Shown piece after piece: positions 6,569 to 16,889 of a DNA stretch of 64,000 bases. The position numbers and the translations under genes are program-made. The stretch comes from a virus. Taxonomy: Duplodnaviria; Caudoviricetes. The stretch spans positions 11,383 to 75,382 of IMG/VR virus record IMGVR_UViG_3300016472_000447; one strand, 5' to 3'. Positions within the stretch are counted from its first letter, which is position 1, and each line of letters opens with the position of its first letter. Below the pieces are notes generated by a model. The model saw only the letters and a program-made list of their open reading frames with translations. It was not told where the DNA came from and made no database searches.

Positions 6569-7047
6569 TTGCACCAGCTTTGTTTTGCCTCGCCATAATA
6601 CTCTCTAGCATGCCCATTGGTTATCAAACCTTGCCGAAGGCTTTGTCCATTAACTAAAAGGTCCCCCAATACGCGACCACCAAACTTATCCCAACCATAA
6701 AGAACAATTTTCCTATCACCTCCAGAATTTACAAAATCCTTAGTAAACTTTGATGCTGCTTGAGCCATTTGATCTTCTTTTGGGCACTGTGCTCTGTGAC
6801 CTTTCTCGGGCGTATCTACCCCAAAAACTCTTAAAGATAATTCTGGTTTAAGAGGAGCAGGCAAAAATGGTGCGGCGAAAACTACGGTATCGCCATCTTT
6901 GATTGCAAGAATCTGAGCGTCGTAGGTAACGCCTTTTGGTTGCTTTTGTGCAAATGCAGATGTTGCTAAAATTAAACCTGTTGCTATAACTAGTAATGTT
7001 TTCATCCGAATAATCCTTCTAAAGTTGCTTGTGGTTTGGCCGACCAT
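6565..7047 (-). CDS. thermonuclease (SNase-like) with N-terminal signal peptide; likely start ~7005
   Basis: IKDGDTV, RVFGVDTPE, DKFGGRVLG motifs; MKTLLVIATGLILATSAFA leader. Confidence 0.85.
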   Translation of the reverse strand: MVGQTTSNFRRIIRMKTLLVIATGLILATSAFAQKQPKGVTYDAQILAIKDGDTVVFAAPFLPAPLKPELSLRVFGVDTPEKGHRAQCPKEDQMAQAASKFTKDFVNSGGDRKIVLYGWDKFGGRVLGDLLVNGQSLRQGLITNGHAREYYGEAKQSWCN

Positions 7048-9491
7048 CCTATACCTTCCAAAATAGTATTAATTGGTTCTAGGAAGGATTTTTCAAACAT
7101 AGTATTATAATCGGCATATTTCTTAATATTCAATTCATTGGGAATAGATGAAACGAATGCTATACAATTTTCTCCAATGATATTGGGCTCTTTGAGATAT
7201 AAGAACTTGATCTTATCGCCTTCCTTAATTCTCTCATATTTCTTATCTAATTTATTTGTCACTAAATGATAGTTATAAAGCAAAGCTCCGCGGACATGCA
7301 TCGGTGTTCCTTGTTTATAGATACTTGCTCTATCCGAATATTTATCCAATCCATTTACGCTTCTAGGAAAAGAAATGGATTCTGGCGATAACTTTTTATA
7401 CTCATCCTCAAAATTTCTAACATAAGTCTGTAGATCATTTTCAGTTTGAGTTAGGATGATTTTAACTGCATTGCGTAAAGCATCTCGAACGGGTTCGGGT
7501 GTGGATGATCTAACGATCTCCAGTCCCATAACTTTCAATTTGGGTTCTGCGTATTGAACACCTTCATTATTATATACGTTTAATGCATATCTTTTCTTAG
7601 CTACCCATATGCCTCTATCTGCAATAACTTCTCGTTTAAAGGATATTCTGTTGTCAAATGCATTAGTATAATCCGCAAGCTGATCTGTAGCTGTTTGAAG
7701 AAACGATTCTATTTTCTCATCACACACTTTATCTAAAATCTTTACTAATTTTTCCTTGGGAGTATCCTTGAAGAATTTTTGCACTAAAGGTTCTAATGTA
7801 ATATAGCACGCATCTGTATCTGAATAAAAAGAATACATATAATTCTTAGTACCACATATTTTATTTAAGTTATCATTCAATGCCTTGCCGATAGTTTGAA
7901 TAATAAACTGCCCTGTTAATGTAATTCCTTCAGCTATCCTATCATCATAGAAACGAAAGTATTCGTTTGCCATTGCACCGAATAGGGAATTCATTTGAAT
8001 TTTCCTAGCCATCTGGAAGTTATTAAATTTAGATATTAATTTCTTATATTTTTGATCCTTAGTTTCTTCAAACTTTTTCTGAGCATCCAACATGGACTTC
8101 TTATACTTTTTACGATCATCAAATAATTTTTCTACAATCTCGGGAAAGATCCCTTGTTTATTTCGCATGAAGCAATATCCGTTTGCTGTCATACAATAAT
8201 CCTTCTCCTTAAGATCATCCAAATTTATTTCTTGCTCTACGATCTTACTCATACCTATATCTTTTGAAACCCCAGTTATCATTGTCTCGGGGGAGAGATT
8301 ATACTGCATAATGATACTAGGATATAGGCTTGTTGCATCAAAAGATACTACCCAATCATATTTTCCTGGTTTAGGTTCCTGAACATATGCACCGGCAATT
8401 TGCCTACCTGGTCTTTCTACTCTCTGATGCACTACAATATTTTTCTTCCATAGATGGTTATATAGTATACAGTCCCATGTCCTTACTGCAGAAAATATAT
8501 CAACATAATTACATTTGGCATCATATGCCATAGTTAGAATCAGTTCGATAAGCCGCATCTTATCTTCTAACTGATCTACAAGTTCTACATCTCGAATGTT
8601 ATAGTCTACAAACTTTTGCCAATCGCTTTGCCAAAACTCAGTAAAGGATCCATATTCATCATATGATAATTTTTCTTTACCAAGTTCTACTTTTGCAATA
8701 TGATCTAACTTATAAGATTCCTGGGCAGTATAAGTAAATTTTCTATAAAGATCAAGATAGTCGAGTATGGCAACGCCCATAAGATCGAAAGAAACATTCT
8801 CTTTCTTTAATTTAATAATATTCTTTTGTGAGACTTGTTTCCAGGGGGAAAGTAATTTTACTTGATCTTCTCCCAATACCTTAGCTATACGATTGCACAG
8901 GTATGGTATATCAAAAAATTCAACATTCCATCCTGTGATGATATGGGGATGGTTGTCTTGTAAATCTTCTAAGAATCTTTTGAGCAGAGTAGTCTCATCT
9001 TTGCATAGAATATAATGTACATCATTTCGATAATTATTATACTCTTGCAAGCCATAAGTTGTAATCTTTTTAGTATTATAATCCTGAACTGTGATAAGTA
9101 ATACTTTCTCCATCGGATTATTAATATCCGGAAATCCCAAATCTGCAGTTGTTTCAATATCTAGTGTCCAGATACTAATCTGAGAAATATCGAATTCTAT
9201 TTCATCTGGAAAGGAATCAGATATATATTGATATCCGTAATTAGTATTACCAAAGATTGGAAAGTTTTCGACTTCCTTATATTTCATTACAAAATCTTTG
9301 GCATCATTGATGCTTTCAAAATCGATCCTATCTAGATTCTCTCCAAACAAAGATTTGAATTTGGATTCTTTTTGAGTTTTTATGAAAAGAGAAGGTTTGA
9401 ATTGGACTTTATCCTGGACTCTTTTGCCATTATTGATCCCGCGGACTAGGATATTATTACCAAACTGATTGATACTAGTGTAGAATTTCAT
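7002..9491 (-). CDS. 43: gp43 family B DNA polymerase
   Basis: Exonuclease DIET/GWN/SYKLDHIA; polymerase SFDATSLYPS, KIQMNSLFG, YSDTDA. Confidence 0.97.
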   Translation of the reverse strand: MKFYTSINQFGNNILVRGINNGKRVQDKVQFKPSLFIKTQKESKFKSLFGENLDRIDFESINDAKDFVMKYKEVENFPIFGNTNYGYQYISDSFPDEIEFDISQISIWTLDIETTADLGFPDINNPMEKVLLITVQDYNTKKITTYGLQEYNNYRNDVHYILCKDETTLLKRFLEDLQDNHPHIITGWNVEFFDIPYLCNRIAKVLGEDQVKLLSPWKQVSQKNIIKLKKENVSFDLMGVAILDYLDLYRKFTYTAQESYKLDHIAKVELGKEKLSYDEYGSFTEFWQSDWQKFVDYNIRDVELVDQLEDKMRLIELILTMAYDAKCNYVDIFSAVRTWDCILYNHLWKKNIVVHQRVERPGRQIAGAYVQEPKPGKYDWVVSFDATSLYPSIIMQYNLSPETMITGVSKDIGMSKIVEQEINLDDLKEKDYCMTANGYCFMRNKQGIFPEIVEKLFDDRKKYKKSMLDAQKKFEETKDQKYKKLISKFNNFQMARKIQMNSLFGAMANEYFRFYDDRIAEGITLTGQFIIQTIGKALNDNLNKICGTKNYMYSFYSDTDACYITLEPLVQKFFKDTPKEKLVKILDKVCDEKIESFLQTATDQLADYTNAFDNRISFKREVIADRGIWVAKKRYALNVYNNEGVQYAEPKLKVMGLEIVRSSTPEPVRDALRNAVKIILTQTENDLQTYVRNFEDEYKKLSPESISFPRSVNGLDKYSDRASIYKQGTPMHVRGALLYNYHLVTNKLDKKYERIKEGDKIKFLYLKEPNIIGENCIAFVSSIPNELNIKKYADYNTMFEKSFLEPINTILEGIGWSAKPQATLEGLFG

Positions 9492-9515: not shown

Positions 9516-9523
9516 TATAAATA
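9516..9523 (+). promoter_or_regulatory. T4-type late promoter for the + strand operon
   Basis: Exact TATAAATA, 72 nt upstream of the CDS at 9596. Confidence 0.65.
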
Positions 9524-9595
9524 ATAATTATATAGGAAATTGAGAATAAGAACAATATAAAATTTAGTTAAATTAACCATAAAGAGAGAGGGTCT

Positions 9596-11140
9596 ATGAA
9601 GAAAAAGGCCATAAGCATTTTCTTCGTAATGGCTTCGTTATCCGCAGTTGCTCAGACCTATGATTCGACAACAAAAGTAGACACAAATAATACCAGTACT
9701 TCTACAAGTACTGTTAACTCCAATAACAATAATACAAACACTTCTACCTCGACCAGTACTTCAACGGTCAACAGTACAAATACAAACACGAACAATAACG
9801 TAAATACTAGTACATCCACTAGTACAAATACCAATAACAATGTAAATCAGAATATAAATTCTGGTGAAACTACCACTAACGTAGTGAACTCCGGAACGGT
9901 CACATATAACAATAACAACGTGAATACTGGCACGATGACCAACATCAATCAGAACACTTCAACATCCAATAGTACGAATACGAACAACAACAATAATATA
10001 AATCAAAACATTAACTCTGGGGAACAGACATTTAACAATAATAACGTCAGCACATCGACGAGCACCAATACCAACATCAATCAGAACATTAACTCTGGGA
10101 CGATGACATACAATAACAATAACAATAACAATACTACTAGCAATAATACAAATGTCAATCAGAACATCAACTCTGGAACGATGACATACAATAATAATAA
10201 TAACACCACAAGCACAAATACAAATAACAATATTAATCAGAACATTAACTCTGGCACAATGACATATAACAATAATAACGTCAATACCTCGAACTCTACA
10301 TCTGATAATACCAATCGGACTATAATGTCGGGGCAAGTCACGTATAATAATAACAATAATACTACCTCAAACAATACTAATACTAATCATAACATTAATT
10401 CTGGAACAATGACTTACAATAATAATAATGTTTCAACATCAACTAGTAACAATACGAATACCAATAATAATACCAATGTTAATATAAATTCTGGTACACA
10501 GACATTCAATAACAACAATGTGAGCACAAGCAACGCCACGAACAATAATAACAATAACAACGTGAATACTTCGACCTCTACATCGACGAACACGAACGTG
10601 AATCAGAACAATTCCGTATCTCGGAGCACCAGCAACAATGTAAACGCTAATACGAATCAGAACGTCAATGTAAACACTGGTGACATGACCAACCGCAATA
10701 TCAATACTACCGAGATCAAGCAAGAAGTCAAGACACCTCCTCCTACTGCTGTTGCACCATCCATGATGTCTGGGGGAGGTAACGATCTCTGTACCACAGG
10801 TACTTCGGGTGCAGTGCAGACTCAGATATTTGGTGTGTCAGCAGGCGGTACAGTAAGAGACATGAATTGCGAGAGATTGAAACTCTCAAAGACACTTTAT
10901 GACATGGGTATGAAGGTGGCAGCAGTTGCTACCATGTGCCAGGATCGCAGGGTATTCGACGCGATGATGGCAGCAGGAACTCCCTGCCCATATGAAGGTA
11001 AGATCGGAGCCGAGGCGATGGCTCTCTGGACATCAAATCCAGAGAAGATCCCTGCCCCTGTCGTAAAGGAAGAAGATGACACTTATAAGAAAATTGGCCT
11101 TGGTACTGTTCTCGGTGCTATGGCTTCAAGATTATTCTAA
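9596..11140 (+). CDS. secreted Asn/Thr-repeat protein with Cys-containing C-terminal domain
   Basis: Signal peptide (...SLSAVA-Q); ~8 copies of NxNINSG(T/E)xT(Y/F)NNNN; C-terminal PPPTAVAP...DLCTTG...NCERLKL...MCQD...TPCP; hydrophobic tail. Confidence 0.8.
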   Translation: MKKKAISIFFVMASLSAVAQTYDSTTKVDTNNTSTSTSTVNSNNNNTNTSTSTSTSTVNSTNTNTNNNVNTSTSTSTNTNNNVNQNINSGETTTNVVNSGTVTYNNNNVNTGTMTNINQNTSTSNSTNTNNNNNINQNINSGEQTFNNNNVSTSTSTNTNINQNINSGTMTYNNNNNNNTTSNNTNVNQNINSGTMTYNNNNNTTSTNTNNNINQNINSGTMTYNNNNVNTSNSTSDNTNRTIMSGQVTYNNNNNTTSNNTNTNHNINSGTMTYNNNNVSTSTSNNTNTNNNTNVNINSGTQTFNNNNVSTSNATNNNNNNNVNTSTSTSTNTNVNQNNSVSRSTSNNVNANTNQNVNVNTGDMTNRNINTTEIKQEVKTPPPTAVAPSMMSGGGNDLCTTGTSGAVQTQIFGVSAGGTVRDMNCERLKLSKTLYDMGMKVAAVATMCQDRRVFDAMMAAGTPCPYEGKIGAEAMALWTSNPEKIPAPVVKEEDDTYKKIGLGTVLGAMASRLF

Positions 11141-13064
11141 CGCACAAGAAGTAGTTGCTGCCCCCGTAACCACCCAAAATCATCAAATTGGTGATGATGG
11201 GTGGTCTAATGTGCCTTTGCAATTCAATTTCCCTTTCTATGGCCAAAACTTTAACAACAGTTGGCTATACAGTAATGGTGCGATTGGATTTGTGAATCCA
11301 AACCAAGGTGGTTTGGGTGGCAACAATCTATCTGTGAGAGAGTTCACCAACAACATGGGCAGCCAGTTCAACTACACCATCTATCCCATGTGGACCGATC
11401 TCATCAATCTTTCTGGCACCTTTCAAACAGAAGGATCTGCTGACTTCCAGAGATACAAATGGATAGGTATTAGTCCCTATGCTGACGGAAACAGATTCAA
11501 CACCTTCACTGTGGAAATCAAACCCAACGGACAGATCAATGTCAACTATAGTTTGGTTAATGTGAATTATGCAACCATTGGTTTAATTGGTGATGCTAGC
11601 AAGGGTGAATATGAGCAGATATACAGATTCAATGGTGGAGTGAATACTGGCATGGTTTCTGATTGGAGTAGATACACAAGCGTAGCAGTTGATCCTTGTA
11701 TAGAAAATCCTACAGCCTCTTCCAGTTGTCCTGGTTATGCTCAAGCTCTTTTGAGTCAGATAGCAAATGTACTACCTGCAGCAACCGAAGTAGCAACAAC
11801 GACCTCTCCTGCTTCCCAAGCTGAACCAGTACAAGAAAATACAGCATCTTCATCTGCATTGGCAGCTGCAGTCCAGCAATCATCTTCAGAACCTCAAGCA
11901 GCGGAACCCGTAGCAACCGCAGAACAGAAACAAGAGCAGAGCGGTGAGAAGAAAGGTGCTTCTCTATCCACTATCCTGAGTATCGTCGGCAAAGAGCAGA
12001 GCAGGATAGCAGCAGTAGAGCAGAGCGTTGTGTCGGAATCAGTATCCCAAGCGATGAAGGATGCCGACAGGATGACTGCGGATGCCGAAGCAGTCGCCCA
12101 GCAGAGTTCCAGCCAGAGCCAAGAGCAAGCATCCACAGAACCGAACAACAATCAGACGCAGACAGCAACTGTACAGCAAGCATCAGTCCAGACCACAGTA
12201 TCTGCAGCAAGCCTCGCAGCTAGATCGGGTCCTGCTGAACAGCGAGCAGAAGAGAAGAAAGAAGAGCAGACTTCTCAGCAAGATCAAGACACCTCATCTC
12301 AAGTACGACCCAATCGGCAAGATGATTCCGCCCAAGCAATCGTGCAGCAGAATCAGAACATGGAACCTCCCAAGCCGCAGGTGATAGTACAGGATAGCCA
12401 ACCGCAGCAACAGATGGATATATCTATCCTCGTACCGGTTCAGAATATGCAGACAGAATCTCAGACATCTCAAGGAGCAGTTGAGATGAAGCAACCTGAT
12501 CCAATCAAGATGGAGGAAACGCAGGCTCCTGTCCAGGTGTTAGCAGTAGAACAGAGACCAGTATCCTCTCAACCCATCGCAACGGCACCCCAGCAAGAAA
12601 CTTCAGTTCCAAGCTTGATACCCCCATCATTAGCTGATCCTCTACGCATAGAGGCGGTGATACAGGATTCATTGCCTACGAATTATTCTCTGATACCCGA
12701 GCGCAGAGTCGTAGAAGAGATCGAGATGCCCAGGATGGAAGAATATAAAGCGGTGACGACTAATCCTGCTGAGGATTTCAAAGACAGCAAACCCCCTGTG
12801 ATGGAACAGCAACAGCAATCTCAGGGACAGCAGGTCAAATCAAATGTGCAAGATAACGAAGCAGCAGGAGGAGTATCGTTGGATAGGATGGCAGTACAAC
12901 CTGCAGGTTATGCGCAGTATAGCATCGCATTGAAAGATGCCGCATTCTATGAACCCAAAGAGATTTACAAAGGACAGAAAGTAGTAGATAATGCAAGAGC
13001 ATTGAGACAGTTAGCGACGGATAAACTTCATCAAGAGATGGTAGAACAACAATACAGGAGATAA
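11076..13064 (+). CDS. secreted protein: nidogen(NIDO)-like N-domain, long Q/S/E/P/A-rich stalk, globular C-terminus
   Basis: Signal peptide; DDGWSNVPLQFNFPFYG...SNGAIGF...IYPMWTDL; CIENPTASSSC; low-complexity middle. Confidence 0.7.
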   Translation: MTLIRKLALVLFSVLWLQDYSNAQEVVAAPVTTQNHQIGDDGWSNVPLQFNFPFYGQNFNNSWLYSNGAIGFVNPNQGGLGGNNLSVREFTNNMGSQFNYTIYPMWTDLINLSGTFQTEGSADFQRYKWIGISPYADGNRFNTFTVEIKPNGQINVNYSLVNVNYATIGLIGDASKGEYEQIYRFNGGVNTGMVSDWSRYTSVAVDPCIENPTASSSCPGYAQALLSQIANVLPAATEVATTTSPASQAEPVQENTASSSALAAAVQQSSSEPQAAEPVATAEQKQEQSGEKKGASLSTILSIVGKEQSRIAAVEQSVVSESVSQAMKDADRMTADAEAVAQQSSSQSQEQASTEPNNNQTQTATVQQASVQTTVSAASLAARSGPAEQRAEEKKEEQTSQQDQDTSSQVRPNRQDDSAQAIVQQNQNMEPPKPQVIVQDSQPQQQMDISILVPVQNMQTESQTSQGAVEMKQPDPIKMEETQAPVQVLAVEQRPVSSQPIATAPQQETSVPSLIPPSLADPLRIEAVIQDSLPTNYSLIPERRVVEEIEMPRMEEYKAVTTNPAEDFKDSKPPVMEQQQQSQGQQVKSNVQDNEAAGGVSLDRMAVQPAGYAQYSIALKDAAFYEPKEIYKGQKVVDNARALRQLATDKLHQEMVEQQYRR

Positions 13065-13065
13065 A

Positions 13066-13596
13066 ATGTCTAACTTGGATGAAAAAGTAGATAAGCTAGA
13101 AGCAGCAGTAGATCCTAATACAGTAATATCAATAGGTGGAATCAATTTCACGCCTGCTAAACTTATGATCGCCGGCGGTATCCTATCATCCGTCCTCGGC
13201 GGTCTATATGGCGCATTCGAAGTATACAAAGATTACATGAGCATGAAAGAAGCCATACAGACATATGTTGCACCCGACCTCTCTGCCATCAACGAGAAGC
13301 TCTCGGTGCTAGAGAAGCAGATGGAAAATGTGAAGAGCAGTGTAGGAGAAGCAGCAGATTATACAAGTGATATAAAAAATGATCTAAAGTCAGACATTCG
13401 TAGATTAGAGAATGTAGTAGAAGGCGTAGAGAGAGGAAGTAAACAACTCCAAAGAGAGACACTGGCAGATGTTAAATCCATGAGGGATGAATTACGCGAT
13501 ACACGCAGAGAAGTCGAACGCGAGATGCGCCAGCAGAAGGCTGAACTTGAGAAGAAACTAAAAGAGAGCATAGACAATCCTCTAGCTGGAAAATAA
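13066..13596 (+). CDS. single-TM coiled-coil membrane protein
   Basis: Hydrophobic LMIAGGILSSVLGGLYGAF, followed by ~120 aa of heptad-like helix. Confidence 0.7.
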   Translation: MSNLDEKVDKLEAAVDPNTVISIGGINFTPAKLMIAGGILSSVLGGLYGAFEVYKDYMSMKEAIQTYVAPDLSAINEKLSVLEKQMENVKSSVGEAADYTSDIKNDLKSDIRRLENVVEGVERGSKQLQRETLADVKSMRDELRDTRREVEREMRQQKAELEKKLKESIDNPLAGK

Positions 13597-14115
13597 ATGG
13601 ATATCGCGGAAGTACTGAAATCCGCGAACATGGCATTTGAACAGGTGAAAAAGGTGTCGGCTTTTACCGACGATGCCAATGCTATCATGGGTAGTATCAC
13701 AGGATTTGCAGGTCAACTAGGTGAACTCAAGAAAGCGTTGGTATTGAATGATATGCAGGATCTACATCAGAAATCTACCAGTTCAAAGAAGCCGAAGAAG
13801 ACTGCTACTGGGAAAGCGATGGATGTGTATACCGCTAAGGTGCGTCTCCGGCACATGGAACAAGAACTATACCATATGTTCCTTTATGGGGATCTAAATC
13901 ATCTAGGAATGGATGGATACAAAGAATTCTGTGCCATACGTCAGAGTATCGAGGATCAAGCTCGCAAAAGTGCAGAAGCAGAACATGCATGGAAACTAAA
14001 TGAAGAAGCTGATGAACAATTCATGAAGCAACTTAAAATTATAGGCGGGGCAGCATTTGGGGGTATCGTAGCAACAGTGCAACTGGCACAACAAATTAAG
14101 GATTTACTACAATAA
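13597..14115 (+). CDS. hypothetical protein with C-terminal hydrophobic segment
   Basis: 172 aa; IIGGAAFGGIVATVQLA near the C-terminus. Confidence 0.65.
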   Translation: MDIAEVLKSANMAFEQVKKVSAFTDDANAIMGSITGFAGQLGELKKALVLNDMQDLHQKSTSSKKPKKTATGKAMDVYTAKVRLRHMEQELYHMFLYGDLNHLGMDGYKEFCAIRQSIEDQARKSAEAEHAWKLNEEADEQFMKQLKIIGGAAFGGIVATVQLAQQIKDLLQ

Positions 14116-14151
14116 TAAATACAATTGGTTTTACCGTAACTAGGAGATACT

Positions 14152-14364
14152 ATGAATAAATTATTACTAATCGTAGCAATTTCTTTGTTATTGGCGGGTT
14201 GCGAACAGCAGTATAGATATCCATGTCAGGACCCCAATAATTGGGATAATGAATCTTGTCAAAAACCCCTATGTGAAGTAAATAGGGATTGTCCCGAACA
14301 TATTTTTAAAGAAAATAAAGACGGTTCGTCTAAATCTAAATCATTCAAAGGAGAATGTAAATGA
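14152..14364 (+). CDS. small Cys-rich lipoprotein
   Basis: MNKLLLIVAISLLLAG-C lipobox; further Cys in YPCQDP, SCQKPLC, RDCPE; GGAG RBS. Confidence 0.8.
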   Translation: MNKLLLIVAISLLLAGCEQQYRYPCQDPNNWDNESCQKPLCEVNRDCPEHIFKENKDGSSKSKSFKGECK

Positions 14365-14777
14365 AAGAAGTAAAAGCATCAAATCGTTATTCTGAAGAAG
14401 AATTGATGGTTCGTCTTAAATTTTTCATAGGCATTTGCTTAGCATTAACATTAATAGGCATCGTTTTTACTGTATTATATAGCATCATGTTTATAACACA
14501 ACCATTAAACGCGATCAGTCCTATTGATTCAAAATTCTTTGAATTAATTATACCGATAGCAACATTCCTTACTGGCACATTGTCGGGTATAATGTTGGCT
14601 GGTACAGGTAAAGATGCAGCTATGTCTGGGGCAGCACAAGCAAGCAAAAGCTTCGCACCTAAACCATTAGCAAGTCCTGTTTCTAATCCAGCACCATTAA
14701 ATCCCTCACCTGTCATGAAAGAACCTACTATGTCTTTCAGTAAGGTTGAAGAAGTCAAGTTAGATTCAGAGCCCTGA
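14361..14777 (+). CDS. two-TM membrane protein
   Basis: FFIGICLALTLIGIVFTVLYSIMFI and FFELIIPIATFLTGTLSGIMLAG; Pro-rich tail. Confidence 0.75.
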   Translation: MKEVKASNRYSEEELMVRLKFFIGICLALTLIGIVFTVLYSIMFITQPLNAISPIDSKFFELIIPIATFLTGTLSGIMLAGTGKDAAMSGAAQASKSFAPKPLASPVSNPAPLNPSPVMKEPTMSFSKVEEVKLDSEP

Positions 14778-14779
14778 TT

Positions 14780-15097
14780 GTGAAAAAATCATTACAACCT
14801 AATTCTAAATATAATCGATTTGATTTGAATCGAGATGGGGAGGTCTCAGATAATGAGATGCAGGATTCCTACGATATGTTAGAATTGGAATTGAAGGAGG
14901 AAAAGGCCGATACTCAAAAACGTATGGCTTGGGCTTCCTTCATTGTAATGGTAGCGGTAACAGTTTTTCTGTTTTTGCCTGTAGTATCAGATACCCGAGT
15001 AGAGGCACTTAGTGATCTACTCGGGTTATTTTATATCTCTCAGGCGGGTATAATAGGTGCGTATATGGGAGTAACCGCTTGGATGAATAAAAAATGA
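14780..15097 (+). CDS. holin-like two-TM protein with EF-hand-like loop
   Basis: DLNRDGEVSDNE (DxDxDG-like), two hydrophobic helices, basic C-terminus; GTG start. Confidence 0.6.
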   Translation: MKKSLQPNSKYNRFDLNRDGEVSDNEMQDSYDMLELELKEEKADTQKRMAWASFIVMVAVTVFLFLPVVSDTRVEALSDLLGLFYISQAGIIGAYMGVTAWMNKK

Positions 15098-15186
15098 TGA
15101 TAGATTATTTTGTAGCTTATTGGTTGTATCTTGTATATTTGCCCTATGCACTCATACCCGAATACGGAAGGTTATTTTCTAAGTAA
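15094..15186 (+). CDS. 30-aa hydrophobic peptide (not in ORF track)
   Basis: ATGA overlap with the upstream stop; MMIDYFVAYWLYLVYLPYALIPEYGRLFSK*. Confidence 0.5.
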   Translation: MMIDYFVAYWLYLVYLPYALIPEYGRLFSK

Positions 15187-15520
15187 TACTCACTTGCGGA
15201 GTTTGTCTGCCACCGTCATTGACCGCTTTGCCCAATTGATTCGTTACTATTTGAATACCTGATCCAAAGATAGCATTATACTGATTAAATACTTCATCAT
15301 CTAAATCTGCTTCCCAAACTATACTAGATGCCTTAACTTTGATCTTATGCTCTTTAGTATATCCAGCATATGGGATAAGCCCCATAGAATGTTGATCTGG
15401 TGTAGAACGAGACCCCAATAACATAATAGCACATGGTTTATTAACCAACACATATTCATTCTGATATGTGACCTCTCCAATTACTTCTTCGCCTGTAATT
15501 AATTTCAAAAGTTTAATCAT
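15179..15520 (-). CDS. T4-like hypothetical protein (possible Sm-like fold)
   Basis: MIKLLKLITGEEVIGEV N-terminus, typical of small beta-barrel proteins in T4-like phages. Confidence 0.6.
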   Translation of the reverse strand: MIKLLKLITGEEVIGEVTYQNEYVLVNKPCAIMLLGSRSTPDQHSMGLIPYAGYTKEHKIKVKASSIVWEADLDDEVFNQYNAIFGSGIQIVTNQLGKAVNDGGRQTPQVSIT

Positions 15521-15692: not shown

Positions 15693-15805
15693 TGGTGAAA
15701 AAAGCCTTTATTATGAAATCTCAGATGTTGCTTTGCTCTTTCCATCTGAATTTCAGTTATCACCTCAAAGATAAACTTAAAGAAATTACTTATCGTTTTC
15801 AACAT
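15683..15805 (-). CDS. 40-aa hypothetical protein (not in ORF track)
   Basis: GGAGG RBS inside the hsp20 3' end; MLKTISNFFKFIFEVITEIQMERAKQHLRFHNKGFFHHWE*. Confidence 0.6.
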   Translation of the reverse strand: MLKTISNFFKFIFEVITEIQMERAKQHLRFHNKGFFHHWE

Positions 15806-16316
15806 CATTTTCCTCCATTAGCAGTACTCTATTGTCTGCAGTGAAGGAAGATACTGTAGAAGGTTCATCCTTTACTTCTATTTTTTTAGGCTTTTTATGC
15901 TCGGGAATAATTTTCTCTAAGAAGACCTTAAGCATTCCGTTAACTAATTCCGCATTCTGCACTTCGATCTGATCGTTGAGTGCAAACATACGGGTAAATG
16001 CCCGGTTAGCGATACCTTTGAACAGATAGTCAGCAGAAGTTTCATTGTCATCGGTTGTAAAACCTTTAACGATAAGTTTGCCATCGTCCAGAGTAATATC
16101 TAGATTCGACTTAGAAAATCCTGCTACTGCGAGCTCTATGGTATAGGTATTTTCGCCGGTCTTCTTAATATTGTATGGGGGATAGTTTGGGATGTGCTTG
16201 GTAAGATCATCGTGTATCTTAGCCATGCGATTAAACTGATCATCATAACCAACGAAAAACTTATCAAAATCTTTAAATGCGTCGTAAACTGCAGGAAGTT
16301 GCTTAAGATATGTCAT
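15786..16316 (-). CDS. small heat-shock protein Hsp20 (IbpA-like)
   Basis: YPPYNI, IELAVAGF, YLFKGIANRAF, NGML; AAGGAG RBS supports ATG 16316 rather than 16361. Confidence 0.93.
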   Translation of the reverse strand: MTYLKQLPAVYDAFKDFDKFFVGYDDQFNRMAKIHDDLTKHIPNYPPYNIKKTGENTYTIELAVAGFSKSNLDITLDDGKLIVKGFTTDDNETSADYLFKGIANRAFTRMFALNDQIEVQNAELVNGMLKVFLEKIIPEHKKPKKIEVKDEPSTVSSFTADNRVLLMEENDVENDK

Positions 16317-16322
16317 GCTGTT

Positions 16323-16339
16323 CTCCTTAATTAAGCGAG
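16323..16339 (-). promoter_or_regulatory. ROSE-like RBS-sequestering hairpin (candidate RNA thermometer)
   Basis: CTC-G-CTT-AATT-AAGGAG: UCGCU motif with a bulged G pairs with the SD. Confidence 0.5.
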
Positions 16340-16454
16340 TTAAATTGAAAATGCTACCCAATTGGCATAGCGATGCTGCTTACGATTACAGCGATAGTCT
16401 AACGTTCTATCCGTTCTAGTTTTATCTAGCAGTACGTCCCATCTCGGGATATTA

Positions 16455-16889
16455 TTATTTATTAAAGTTAATGCCCTTTTTCTTGCCAATATTATACTTG
16501 GTTTCTAACTTCCAGTCATGTTTTTCTTTATGCGAGATAACTTTTATCTGCGATAAAGGAGCATAATCTTTAAAATGTTCTGAATTTAATACTGATACTA
16601 ATCCCCAATCTACCAACAGTTTAGCTATAGTATTCCTTCTTTGAAGATCATTATCTGTTAGATCAGCATTTTTACCATCCAATGCAAATAATTCTTTAAA
16701 GTGGACAATAAAATATCTTCCTTGTTTGTGTAAGATATGGCAAGATTGATAAAGAGTTTTATCTTTTCTAGACGCAACTCCTATACGAGTTAATGTTTCC
16801 CTAACCTTTAGGAAATCATCGGGTTCCAAAAGGTTAATTTCTAACGGTCTATATCCAGGAAAATCAATATGAATTAATTCATCAGTCAT
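16455..16889 (-). CDS. regA: RegA translational repressor
   Basis: DDFLKVRETLTRIGVAS...LYQSCHILHKQGRYFIVHFKELF. Confidence 0.95.
   Translation of the reverse strand: MTDELIHIDFPGYRPLEINLLEPDDFLKVRETLTRIGVASRKDKTLYQSCHILHKQGRYFIVHFKELFALDGKNADLTDNDLQRRNTIAKLLVDWGLVSVLNSEHFKDYAPLSQIKVISHKEKHDWKLETKYNIGKKKGINFNK

What the first reader, a model, noticed from the sequence alone, without database searches (positions are those of the whole stretch)
9516..15186. Eight-gene, late-promoter, opposite-strand operon made entirely of secreted or membrane proteins
Seen: the only multi-gene + strand block. It starts at TATAAATA and is tightly packed, mostly abutting or overlapping. Every product has a signal peptide, lipobox or TM segment: Asn/Thr-repeat protein, NIDO-like stalk protein, TM coiled coil, C-terminal-TM protein, Cys-rich lipoprotein, 2-TM protein, EF-hand-like 2-TM protein and a 30-aa hydrophobic peptide. 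Parts look visibly GC-richer than the flanks. No endolysin is present. Inference: a trans-envelope assembly displayed on the infected cell late in infection (adhesion or aggregation, receptor occlusion, release control), or a non-canonical lysis module. I cannot match it to a described system.
Basis: partly seen in the sequence, partly recalled or inferred. Interest (0 to 1): 0.72.

Follow-up and report, generated by a model that had tools for sequence, protein, structure and literature searches.

The report
Exported phage module tied to lysis
A T4-like aquatic phage carries a late operon of exported and membrane proteins whose conserved core lies next to the cell-bursting genes of hundreds of other phages, including phages of the abundant ocean bacterium SAR11, so it is probably an undescribed part of how these viruses open the host envelope.

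Summary
Seven real genes (P1-P7) plus one doubtful 30-aa ORF form the only multi-gene + strand block, between DNA polymerase gp43 and regA. A T4-type late-promoter core precedes it.

It is not a one-off. P1 (signal peptide, Asn/Thr linker, 4-Cys domain), P2 (secreted, variable beta-sandwich head, acidic stalk, conserved tail) and P3 (N-terminal membrane anchor, coiled coil, C-terminal NPL motif) keep this order in about 240 viral contigs. These include cultured Pelagibacter and Roseobacter phages. The P1 domain spans 1303 clusters and is essentially virus-only.

In smaller phages the trio abuts endolysins of four unrelated families (GH19, M15, Amidase_2, GH24), plus holins and Rz/Rz1-like spanins. 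A secreted S11 peptidase sits beside it in T4-like relatives.

Roseophage-type cassettes also carry a small lipoprotein paralog of the P1 domain, placed like an o-spanin.

Best reading, untested: a lysis-cassette envelope module, probably a spanin-like periplasm-spanning complex. It is not the pelagiphage curli system. Surface display is unsupported.

No known fold, family or paper matched.

The scan met this cassette before on other DNA. One earlier follow-up (e1-5377339) also linked it to lysis.

The parts
9516..9523 (+). T4-type late-promoter core TATAAATA in the 104-nt gp43|P1 intergenic region
   Evidence: An ATAAATA core lies 43-101 nt upstream of P1 in 13 of 14 syntenic relatives, against a 2.4% background. 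Promoter activity itself was not tested.
9596..11140 (+). P1, 514 aa: signal peptide, about 350 aa Asn/Thr/Ser low-complexity region, then a conserved 4-Cys domain and a C-terminal hydrophobic helix
   Evidence: PHROG phrog_20531, E 2.3e-13. More than 599 matching stretches in IMG/VR. 1303 clusters at 50% identity.
9995..10429 (+). Tandem 78-nt (26-aa) repeats inside the P1 linker
   Evidence: Tandem Repeats Finder: period 78, 3.7-4.6 copies, 65-76% matches. P1 length ranges from 125 to 531 aa among relatives.
10700..11140 (+). P1 C-terminal domain: beta-hairpin plus four helices with two likely disulfides, then a terminal helix
   Evidence: AlphaFold2 mean pLDDT 82. Cys31, Cys57 and Pro97 are invariant, and Cys80 and Cys96 nearly so. 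No PDB match: Foldseek E above 0.8, VIA Z at most 2.5. It matches only uncharacterised viral proteins in BFVD.
11076..13064 (+). P2, 662 aa: signal peptide, beta-sandwich head (about residues 30-200), Cys motif, long helix 297-350, about 250 aa acidic/Gln-rich disordered stalk, and a conserved C-terminal tail of about 70 aa
   Evidence: AlphaFold2: head pLDDT above 90, stalk below 50. Relatives mostly share only the tail (query residues about 540-661), while heads differ. The tail is homologous in marine phages: hhalign 95-97%. No Pfam or PDB hit.
13066..13596 (+). P3, 176 aa: short cytoplasmic N-terminus, one TM, strongly conserved juxtamembrane motif, coiled coil, and a C-terminal NPLAGK
   Evidence: family consensus. 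It follows P2 in 75 loci. The roseophage-type protein is homologous: hhalign 95%, E 4e-8. Only coiled-coil noise in Pfam, NCBIfam and PADLOC.
13597..14115 (+). P4, 172 aa: helical protein with a C-terminal hydrophobic anchor. A divergent member of a tail-anchored family of about 165 aa that follows P3 in many loci
   Evidence: 74% identity to the L007 homolog. hhalign to the P4-like cluster: 81%, E 1.2e-5. The family is present in 37 or more loci.
14152..14364 (+). P5, 70 aa: Cys-rich lipoprotein (lipobox LLAGC) with a conserved YRYPCQDP..NW motif
   Evidence: It is the only lipobox ORF in the 64-kb window. Homologs in other phages carry an N-terminal TM instead of a lipobox. It is always paired with P6.
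14361..14777 (+). P6, 138 aa: two-TM inner-membrane protein with a Pro/Ala/Ser tail
   Evidence: PHROG phrog_25359, E 2.7e-16. tblastn hits in phage records. It never occurs together with DUF4337 in the loci examined: 6 against 33 loci, no overlap.
14780..15097 (+). P7, 105 aa: N-terminal EF-hand-like loop followed by two hydrophobic helices (holin-sized)
   Evidence: PHROG phrog_27150, E 1.1e-7. Pfam EF-hand_5 (E 0.011) and Phage_holin_3_6 (E 0.039), both below their cut-offs. The L055 homolog keeps the loop.
15094..15186 (+). P8, a 30-aa hydrophobic ORF that is probably not a gene
   Evidence: No homolog in any search. It overlaps the convergent gene 15179-15520.

Best explanation
The block is a late-transcribed envelope module that belongs to the phage's lysis apparatus.

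Shown:
- It is one tightly packed + strand unit behind a conserved T4-type late-promoter core.
- P1 and P2 carry Sec signal peptides.
- P3 is an N-terminally anchored inner-membrane coiled-coil protein.
- P4, P6 and P7 are small membrane proteins, and P5 is a lipoprotein.
- P1-P2-P3 is a conserved, virus-only gene trio.
- In smaller phages the trio lies directly beside endolysins of four unrelated families, with holins and spanin-like pairs.

Inferred:
- After Sec export, the disulfide-bonded P1 domain and the conserved tail of P2 dock on the periplasmic coiled coil and NPL tail of P3. This would make an inner-membrane-anchored complex that reaches through the cell wall. The long disordered linkers of P1 and P2 would serve as spacers. 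The exchangeable head of P2 would bind a host-specific envelope component.
- When the holin and endolysin act, this complex helps break or detach the outer layers. It would work like a multi-protein spanin whose outer partner is not a lipoprotein, or as an auxiliary to canonical spanins.
- P4 and the small membrane proteins (P5/P6, P7, or DUF4337 and small peptides in relatives) are the inner-membrane accessories, possibly including the holin.

The window's endolysin lies elsewhere, as is usual in T4-like genomes.
For: 1. Synteny. P1-P2-P3 keep their order in about 75 of the 83 IMG/VR loci fetched, from backgrounds ranging from 30-kb podophage/siphophage types to 350-kb jumbo contigs. The order also holds in 160 further loci of marine and roseophage types.

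2. Lysis neighbours.
- GH19 endolysin abuts P1 in L009, L015, L034, L037, L040, L044 and L047. There it is preceded by an Rz/Rz1-like pair (PHROG Rz-like spanin E 2.4e-5; Pfam LysC E 1e-3).
- In L009, L037 and L047, P4 and DUF4337 are followed by a GTA_holin_3TM holin.
- Marine cassettes read P1..P2-P3-M15, Amidase_2-holin-like..P1, or GH24-holin-like..P1.
- Roseophage-type cassettes end in GH19+PG_binding_1.
- In the 160 marine and roseophage-type loci, 83 hold a wall hydrolase within 5 genes of the trio, and 59 within 3.
- Mosig has a GTA_holin_3TM gene just upstream of P1.
- HTVC023P has peptidase M15 right after its P3.

3. Late timing. The conserved late-promoter core is described above.

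4. Spanin-like logic.
- P3 has i-spanin topology.
- In 72 of 76 roseophage-type loci, a 71-86 aa lipoprotein that is a paralog of the P1 domain (hhalign 96.7%, E 3.3e-10) sits between a small TM-coiled-coil gene and P1. That is the classic i-spanin/o-spanin layout.
- The nearly complete pelagiphage genome HTVC202P has no lipobox ORF that could be an o-spanin.

5. Strong constraint. The P1 domain is 66-84% identical across phages whose polymerases are 54-72% identical or unrelated.
Against: - No experiment exists, and the evidence is guilt by association. Accessory 'moron' genes also gather near lysis cassettes.
- Freshwater cassettes already carry a canonical-looking Rz/Rz1 pair next to the trio. 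There the trio cannot simply replace spanins.
- P1 and P2 are not lipoproteins, and their order (P1-P2-P3) is not a spanin gene architecture.
- In T4-like and jumbo contigs the GH19 gene lies 27-70 kb away.
- In HTVC202P the M15 endolysin is about 20 kb from the trio.
- The exchangeable lectin-like head of P2 is the kind of feature expected of host-recognition or exclusion proteins. Known spanins have nothing like it.
- The physical contacts P1-P3 and P2-P3 are assumed, not modelled. No multimer prediction was possible.
Confidence: 0.45

Rival explanations
1. Lysis-timing control. The module would be a sensor or antiholin system analogous to T4 T/RI/RIII. P3 has the same topology as the T4 holin T (short cytoplasmic N-terminus, one TM, periplasmic domain). 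P1 and P2 would be secreted periplasmic ligands, like RI. P4 would be a cytoplasm-facing partner, like RIII. Together they would delay or trigger lysis in response to a periplasmic cue.
For: The lysis-cassette context is the same as for the best explanation. It fits the co-existence with complete holin-endolysin-spanin sets in freshwater cassettes. A variable P2 head could be a sensing domain.
Against: There is no sequence or fold similarity to T, RI or RIII or to any antiholin family in Pfam or PHROGs. Small genomes such as HTVC202P (32 kb) and Baldr (39 kb) keep the 2.3-kb trio, which argues for a core rather than a regulatory luxury function. The P1-domain lipoprotein paralog in an o-spanin-like position points to the outer layers rather than to the holin.
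Confidence: 0.15
2. Superinfection exclusion or receptor masking. Exported P1 and P2, anchored by P3, would bind a host envelope component from the periplasm, or after release. This would block entry of competing phages, or stop progeny from adsorbing to debris, as Cor/Llp-type lipoproteins and T4 Sp/Imm do.
For: The P2 head is swapped between lineages while its tail is kept, as in receptor-binding proteins. The very high conservation of the P1 domain suggests a conserved host target. The N-terminal lipoprotein signal of P5 gives a weak hit to the Cor PHROG (E 0.0062, signal region only). Exclusion genes often sit beside lysis genes (established knowledge).
Against: The late-promoter placement is conserved, whereas exclusion functions are usually needed early. 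There is no match to any defence or exclusion model in PADLOC, apart from coiled-coil noise. The trio lies between endolysin and holin rather than at cassette edges in L009, L037 and L047. It is essentially absent from bacterial genomes and prophages, where exclusion genes are common: only 14 mis-binned-looking MAG contigs among 185,579 species genomes.
Confidence: 0.15
3. Surface-displayed adhesive or amyloid-like structure, the first reader's main idea and the curli analogy. The Asn/Thr repeats of P1 would form a beta-solenoid or amyloid fibre exported to the cell surface to aggregate cells, like the curli (type VIII secretion) cluster described in pelagiphages.
For: P1 has about nine 26-aa Asn/Thr-rich repeats. 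Pelagiphages are known to carry curli genes, with a proposed 'sibling capture' role (PMC7029224, PMC9599517).
Against: No CsgG is present in the record. No CsgF, CsgG or curlin-repeat Pfam hit appears in any of the eight proteins at E up to 1. The published curli cluster genes have alphaproteobacterial homologs, whereas this module is virus-only. No outer-membrane export component is present. The repeat region is just a variable-length linker in the family: total length 125-531 aa, and only about 40-60 aa of linker in pelagiphages. The ESM Atlas model of P1 is low-confidence (pLDDT 0.51).
Confidence: 0.05
4. Virion component. The proteins would be ordinary tail, baseplate or decoration proteins expressed late.
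For: Late expression fits. The cassette lies near tail-fibre or terminase genes in some small phages.
Against: Sec signal peptides, a lipobox and membrane anchors are present throughout. There is no hit to structural PHROGs beyond coiled-coil noise. The position between gp43 and regA lies in the replication module of T4-like genomes.
Confidence: 0.03

Closest known systems
Two-component spanins (lambda Rz/Rz1, P2 LysB/LysC, T4 PseT.3/PseT.2)
   Same: Both have an inner-membrane protein with an N-terminal TM and a periplasmic coiled coil (P3). Both have Cys-containing exported partners. Both are expressed late and reside in lysis cassettes beside endolysin and holin. In roseophage-type cassettes a small lipoprotein bearing the P1-type domain follows a small TM-coiled-coil gene, exactly like an i-/o-spanin pair.
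   Different: There is no sequence relationship to any spanin family. The exported partners P1 and P2 are large, non-lipidated and carry long disordered linkers. The system has three or more components and the gene order is P1-P2-P3. It co-exists with a canonical Rz/Rz1-like pair in freshwater cassettes. The P2 head is exchangeable between lineages.
T4 lysis-inhibition set: holin T, antiholins RI and RIII
   Same: The topologies correspond. P3 resembles T (N-in, one TM, periplasmic domain). P1 and P2 resemble the secreted RI. P4 is a cytoplasm-facing partner like RIII. The host phage is T4-like.
   Different: No homology exists. The periplasmic part of P3 is a coiled coil, not a globular domain. 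The module is also present in podophage-like and siphophage-like small genomes and in jumbo phages.
Pelagiphage curli / type VIII secretion cluster (CsgG, CsgF, CsgA/B, FecR, AC; PMC7029224, PMC9599517)
   Same: Both are multi-gene exported-protein modules shared between pelagimyophages and pelagipodophages. Both contain Asn/Gln/Thr-rich repeat proteins. Both have an unknown role.
   Different: No CsgG or CsgF is present and there are no cellular homologs. The neighbours differ: here they are lysis genes. It is a separate module.
Cor / Llp-type exclusion lipoproteins and T4 Sp (periplasmic exclusion proteins)
   Same: Both are small exported, disulfide-containing phage proteins that act in the periplasm on conserved host or phage targets.
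   Different: No homology exists. This module has late rather than early promoter placement. It is multi-component, with an inner-membrane coiled-coil anchor.
Pfam DUF4337 and GTA_holin_3TM proteins
   Same: Relatives of this cassette carry DUF4337 after P4 and a GTA_holin_3TM holin after that. This gives DUF4337 a lysis-cassette context.
   Different: The window itself has neither. The P5/P6 pair and P7 occupy those positions.

Membership tests
Two-component spanin | i-spanin: type II inner-membrane protein with an N-terminal TMD and a periplasmic coiled coil | tested here: met
   P3 has a TM at about residues 33-51, followed by a helical, heptad-rich region that attracts only coiled-coil families.
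Two-component spanin | o-spanin: small outer-membrane lipoprotein (lipobox Cys) | tested here: not met
   P1 and P2 have Sec (SPase I) signals and no lipobox. P5 has a lipobox, but its homologs elsewhere have a TM instead. A lipoprotein paralog of the P1 domain exists only in roseophage-type cassettes.
Two-component spanin | Gene architecture: the o-spanin gene is embedded in, overlaps, or directly follows the i-spanin gene | tested here: not met
   The order is P1-P2-P3-P4-P5. P3 is separated from P1 by P2 and from P5 by P4.
Two-component spanin | Sequence membership in a described spanin family (Pfam or PHROG) | tested here: not met
   P1-P4 give no spanin hit. P5 gives only an E 0.19 hit, on its signal peptide. 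As a positive control, the lipoprotein next to GH19 in L015 hits Rz-like spanin PHROGs.
Two-component spanin | Location in a lysis cassette with endolysin and holin | tested here: met
   Met in relatives. Not met in the window, where no endolysin is nearby.
Two-component spanin | Required for outer-membrane disruption at lysis | not testable with these tools
   This needs genetics or a lambda Rz/Rz1 complementation assay.
Curli / type VIII secretion cluster of pelagiphages | CsgG channel and CsgF present | tested here: not met
   PF03783 is absent from the 75-kb record. None of the eight proteins gives a Csg or curlin-repeat Pfam hit at E up to 1.
NIDO domain (PF06119), for the P2 head | Match to the Pfam model or a NIDO-like fold | tested here: inconclusive
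   No Pfam hit at E up to 1. The ESM Atlas gave a lead at 0.83 to a cluster in which 12% of members carry NIDO. The confident beta-sandwich model has no clear PDB match: best VIA Z 6.2, to sandwich domains of glycoside phosphorylases.
Class II-like holin, for P6 and P7 | Small protein with two TMDs that belongs to a holin family | tested here: inconclusive
   Two hydrophobic helices each. P7 hits Phage_holin_3_6 at E 0.039, 14.4 bits against a 28.4 cut-off. hhalign of P7 against the GTA_holin_3TM cluster gives only 4%.
EF-hand, for the P7 N-terminus | 12-residue calcium-binding loop matching the family model | tested here: inconclusive
   EF-hand_5 at E 0.011, 15.6 bits against a 25.9 cut-off. 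The loop D-x-N-x-D-G-x-V-x-x-x-E is kept in the L055 homolog.
DUF4337 (PF14235) | Match to the Pfam model | tested here: not met
   Absent from the window's record. Present in relatives' cassettes at E 1.8e-29.

The most novel reading that the evidence does not exclude
P1-P2-P3 would be a third kind of outer-envelope disruption device in phage lysis, after spanins and the phiKT-type cationic peptide. It would be a multi-protein, inner-membrane-anchored, periplasm-spanning complex. It would be built from Sec-exported proteins with previously unseen folds, and a swappable head would aim it at a host-specific envelope component. On this reading it would be the main way the very abundant SAR11 and Roseobacter phages, and many freshwater T4-like and jumbo phages, open the outer layers of their hosts.
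Probability: 0.25. Interest if true: 0.85.

Novelty: new variant of a known kind. Interest (0 to 1): 0.68.

Why it matters
Phage lysis of Gram-negative cells is taught as three steps: holin, endolysin, spanin. About one phage in seven has no recognisable spanin.

This module is a large, virus-only gene set. The P1 domain alone spans 1303 clusters at 50% identity. It sits in or beside the lysis genes of phages of SAR11, Roseobacter and many uncultured freshwater hosts. It is more conserved than their DNA polymerases, and it has no known fold, family or published description that I could find.

If it acts in lysis, it would add a new component class to a textbook pathway. It would also explain how the most abundant marine phages release progeny, which bears on carbon flow in the ocean. 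It would give Pfam DUF4337 and several PHROG families of unknown function a working context. If it does something else, such as exclusion or timing, it is still one of the most widespread uncharacterised phage modules.

The idea can be tested directly in cultured roseophages and pelagiphages, or by complementing lambda spanin mutants.

Tried and rejected
- Family searches. Pfam, NCBIfam, PHROGs and PADLOC on all eight proteins gave no informative family for P1-P5. P3 attracts only coiled-coil noise: ZorA, SMC, tape measure and similar.

- Sequence searches against solved structures, with single proteins and with profiles A1 and A2, gave nothing. The only hits were low-complexity ones such as huntingtin.

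- Fold searches.
  - P2 against PDB by Foldseek: no hit at E below 0.1. By VIA wide: best Z 6.2, with long-helix noise.
  - P1 domain against PDB: nothing.
  - P1 domain against BFVD: only uncharacterised family members.

- ESM Atlas: only unnamed viral clusters.

- Curli reading: rejected.

- Megablast of the block, and tblastn of full-length P2, against GenBank phages: no match.

- The profile scan of genome contigs failed for lack of a conserved stretch. The single-protein scan found only 14 MAG contigs.

- hhalign found no link between P7 and the GTA_holin_3TM cluster, P5 and the small Cys peptide s5, P6 and DUF4337, P3 and the Rz-like i-spanin cluster, or the small TM-coiled-coil cc12 and P3.

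- The short pelagiphage P3-position proteins share architecture and the NPL end. Their homology to P3 is not established: 8-40%.

- GenBank labels on family members were not borne out. 'OmpA family', 'tonB' and 'carbohydrate binding' gave no Pfam hit. CRP-810 gp51, labelled 'lysozyme', gave no PHROG hit and reads as a TM-coiled-coil protein.

- The sigma-70 promoter and terminator scan of the block showed no excess over shuffles.

- Literature searches (pelagiphage+spanin, spanin-less lysis, DUF4337, CRP-810, HTVC023P, HTVC033P) found no description of this module.

Full report
**What the window is.** The window is 64 kb of a 75-kb IMG/VR virus record that is 42% complete. It belongs to a T4-like myophage. 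Its DNA polymerase gp43 (7002-9491, - strand) is about 50% identical to those of cyanomyophages. A RegA homolog (recognised from memory of the T4 sequence) lies at 16455-16889. Nearly all genes are on the - strand.

**The observation.** Between gp43 and a small - strand gene lies the only multi-gene + strand block.
- P1: 9596-11140
- P2: 11076-13064
- P3: 13066-13596
- P4: 13597-14115
- P5: 14152-14364
- P6: 14361-14777
- P7: 14780-15097
- a 30-aa ORF: 15094-15186

Genes abut or overlap. The P1/P2 overlap is 65 nt. P1 and P2 have Sec signal peptides. P3 has one N-terminal TM, and P4 has a weak C-terminal hydrophobic anchor. P5 has a lipobox, P6 has two TMs, and P7 has an EF-hand-like loop plus two hydrophobic helices. 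The 30-aa ORF has no homolog and overlaps the convergent gene, so I do not count it as a gene.

GC rises to 45-50% over P2 against 32-36% in the flanks. This matches the Ala/Gln/Glu/Ser-rich stalk of P2. P1 holds 78-nt tandem repeats.

**The promoter.** TATAAATA at 9516-9523 is not enriched in the window as a whole, but its placement is conserved. In 13 of 14 distinct relatives with the same gp43|P1 junction, an ATAAATA core lies 43-101 nt upstream of P1. Only 2.4% of random 160-nt windows of those loci hold it. The relatives are related by descent, so the binomial figure overstates the significance. Still, the motif's position varies while the polymerases are only 54-72% identical. No internal + strand terminator-like site was seen. 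Late transcription as one unit is therefore likely but untested.

**No known family.** Pfam, NCBIfam and PADLOC give nothing real for any of the proteins, and P3 attracts only coiled-coil noise. PHROGs places the P1 C-terminal domain, P6 and P7 in families of unknown function.

**P2 structure.** AlphaFold2 with a 77-sequence alignment gives P2 these parts:
- a confident beta-sandwich head (residues about 30-200, pLDDT above 90);
- a long helix (297-350);
- about 250 disordered residues;
- a poorly ordered conserved tail.

The head has no clear solved relative.

**P1 structure.** The P1 C-terminal domain (91-sequence alignment, pLDDT 82) is a beta-hairpin followed by four helices, with four conserved cysteines. 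It matches nothing in the PDB. In BFVD it matches only uncharacterised viral proteins.

**Distribution.**
- The P1 domain has 1303 clusters at 50% identity with E of 0.001 or lower.
- It gives more than 599 matching stretches in IMG/VR.
- The ESM Atlas clusters nearest P1 and P2 are 98-100% viral.
- Among one genome for each of 185,579 prokaryote species, only 14 contigs match. All are MAG contigs with mutually inconsistent taxonomic labels, which I read as mis-binned phage DNA.
- In GenBank phages the domain occurs in Pelagibacter phages HTVC023P, HTVC115P, HTVC202P, HTVC033P, Baldr and the myophage Mosig. It also occurs in Roseobacter phages CRP-810 and CRP-207, Ralstonia phage RSP15 and uncultured phages. 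It was not found in cyanophage or enterobacterial T4-like records.

**Synteny.** In the loci fetched with P1 or P2, P1-P2-P3 keep their order almost everywhere. What P2 proteins share is mainly the C-terminal 100 or so residues, while the N-terminal heads differ between lineages. The tail is homologous in marine phages (hhalign 95-97%).

P3 is conserved from its cytoplasmic start through the TM and a juxtamembrane motif, and ends in DNPL. The roseophage-type P3 is homologous (95%). Short pelagiphage proteins in the same position share the architecture and the NPL end, but homology is not demonstrated.

After P3 the cassettes commonly carry:
- a small Cys-rich anchored peptide;
- a tail-anchored protein of about 165 aa;
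- a 53-aa TM peptide;
- a DUF4337 protein.

The window's P4 is a divergent relative of the tail-anchored protein (hhalign 81%). The same genes also occur in the order DUF4337, peptide, P4, peptide, P1, P2, P3, which argues for functional linkage.

The window instead has the P5/P6 pair and P7. P6-family and DUF4337 proteins were never seen together (6 against 33 loci). About 25 loci have the cassette at the same gp43 junction as the window. Others are contigs of 300-356 kb.

**Link to lysis.** This is the main result.

Freshwater cassettes (contigs of about 80-90 kb, 78-84% complete where estimated) read as follows:
- a TM coiled-coil protein;
- a lipoprotein hitting Rz-like spanin PHROGs (E 2.4e-5) and, weakly, Pfam LysC;
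- a GH19 endolysin abutting P1;
- P1, P2, P3, P4 and DUF4337;
- a GTA_holin_3TM holin.

In other loci the GH19 gene lies just downstream, on the other strand. A record-wide search confirmed that the GH19 gene of L015 and L037 is the one next to the cassette. In T4-like and jumbo contigs the GH19 gene lies 27-70 kb away.

Two further scans, seeded with the HTVC023P and CRP-810 versions of P1, gave 160 loci.
- Marine cassettes read P1 ... P2-P3-M15 peptidase, Amidase_2 then a holin-like protein ... P1, or GH24 lysozyme then a holin-like protein ... P1.
- Roseophage-type cassettes read small TM-coiled-coil, lipoprotein, P1, a different secreted protein, P3, often P5-P6 and a secreted nuclease, then GH19 with a PG_binding_1 domain.
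- In 83 of the 160 loci a wall hydrolase lies within 5 genes of the trio, and in 59 within 3, although many contigs are cut short.
- Pfam confirms the Amidase_2, Phage_lysozyme, Peptidase_M15_3 and PG_binding_1 assignments. It also confirms that Mosig gene 00203, just upstream of its P1, is a GTA_holin_3TM protein.

Four unrelated endolysin families next to the same trio in different phage backbones is hard to explain unless the trio belongs with lysis. In T4-like relatives a secreted S11 DD-peptidase is the frequent neighbour.

**A spanin-like clue.** In 72 of 76 roseophage-type loci with enough upstream sequence, a lipoprotein of about 71-86 aa sits between the small TM-coiled-coil gene and P1. 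In CRP-810 it falls in an unannotated gap of the GenBank record. It is homologous to the helical core of the P1 domain (hhalign 96.7%, E 3.3e-10, 40 columns; a weak hit to the P1 PHROG). A P1-type domain therefore also exists as an outer-membrane-type lipoprotein, placed exactly where an o-spanin follows its i-spanin.

In contrast, the nearly complete pelagiphage genome HTVC202P has no lipobox ORF that could be an o-spanin. P5 is the only lipobox ORF in the whole window.

**Interpretation.** I read the block as the phage's envelope and lysis module, lacking only the endolysin, which is scattered elsewhere as in T4. The most likely mechanism is inferred rather than shown. P3 anchors a periplasm-spanning complex with the P1 domain and the P2 tail. 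Long disordered linkers act as spacers. The swappable P2 head engages a host-specific envelope component. The complex acts when the wall is degraded, either as a lipoprotein-less multi-protein spanin or as an auxiliary to spanins. P4-P7 are inner-membrane accessories and may include the holin.

The main weaknesses are these:
- all the evidence is gene context;
- a canonical Rz/Rz1-like pair co-exists with the trio in freshwater cassettes;
- the variable lectin-like head would suit a recognition or exclusion role as well.

Rivals are lysis-timing control on the T4 T/RI/RIII pattern, superinfection exclusion or receptor masking, a surface amyloid or adhesin, and a virion role.

The published pelagiphage curli cluster (PMC7029224, PMC9599517) is a different module. 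It has CsgG and CsgF and alphaproteobacterial homologs, none of which apply here.

**Novelty.** I found no paper describing this module. First readers of this scan noted look-alike cassettes in many other genomes. One earlier follow-up on another lake-water T4-like phage reached the same 'accessory of lysis' reading. I saw that note only after reaching mine. It is not independent evidence.

I file the finding as a new variant of a known kind: an uncharacterised component set of phage lysis cassettes. There is a real chance that it is a new class of outer-envelope disruptor.

Noticed in passing
window 11076-11140: The last 21 codons of P1, which encode its C-terminal hydrophobic helix, and the first codons of P2, which encode its signal peptide, use the same 65 nt in two reading frames. 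The same overlap (about 65 nt) recurs in dozens of related loci, for example P1 ending at 8441 and P2 starting at 8377.
   Followed up: partly
window 14780-15097 (P7): A canonical-looking 12-residue EF-hand loop (D-x-N-x-D-G-x-V-x-x-x-E) precedes the two hydrophobic helices and is kept in the L055 homolog. By the positive-inside rule it would face the cytoplasm. A calcium-sensing small membrane protein in a lysis-type cassette would be unusual.
   Followed up: partly
L063:9392-10099 (- strand) and 15 other loci; L064:6719-7009: T4-like relatives carry a secreted Peptidase_S11 (PBP-like DD-peptidase, E 1.2e-34) and a small secreted partner right next to the cassette. It may be a Sec-exported wall hydrolase acting as, or alongside, the endolysin. 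It is absent from the window's record.
   Followed up: partly
L008, L011, L018, L022, L039 and others (clusters c24, c21, c16, c15): In jumbo-phage contigs a four-gene set sits beside the cassette in 12 loci. It comprises a periplasmic binding-protein-like gene, a 10-TM transporter-like gene, a TM protein, and a gene whose N-terminus looks like an Asp/Glu racemase. These identities were read by eye and not checked with Pfam.
   Followed up: no
L088:5615-5875 (Roseobacter phage CRP-810) and L088:7219-7641: The GenBank record of CRP-810 leaves a lipoprotein ORF (a P1-domain paralog) unannotated between gp54 and gp53. Its gp51, labelled 'lysozyme', is an N-terminal-TM coiled-coil protein ending in NPLGR, that is, the P3 homolog. 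It gave no PHROG hit.
   Followed up: partly
L004, L019, L051, L063 and others; L001:3443-3850: A secreted staphylococcal-nuclease-like protein with a signal peptide recurs near the cassette: 12 loci of the first set and 22 of the roseophage-type set. In the roseophage-type loci it often lies between P6 and the GH19 endolysin.
   Followed up: no
Whether the P1 linker is glycosylated is an open question.
   Followed up: no
window 15786-16361: An Hsp20-type small heat-shock protein gene lies between the cassette and regA. Homologs (62-73% identical) sit near the cassette in several T4-like relatives, and more distant ones (33-40%) near it in other phage backgrounds.
   Followed up: no
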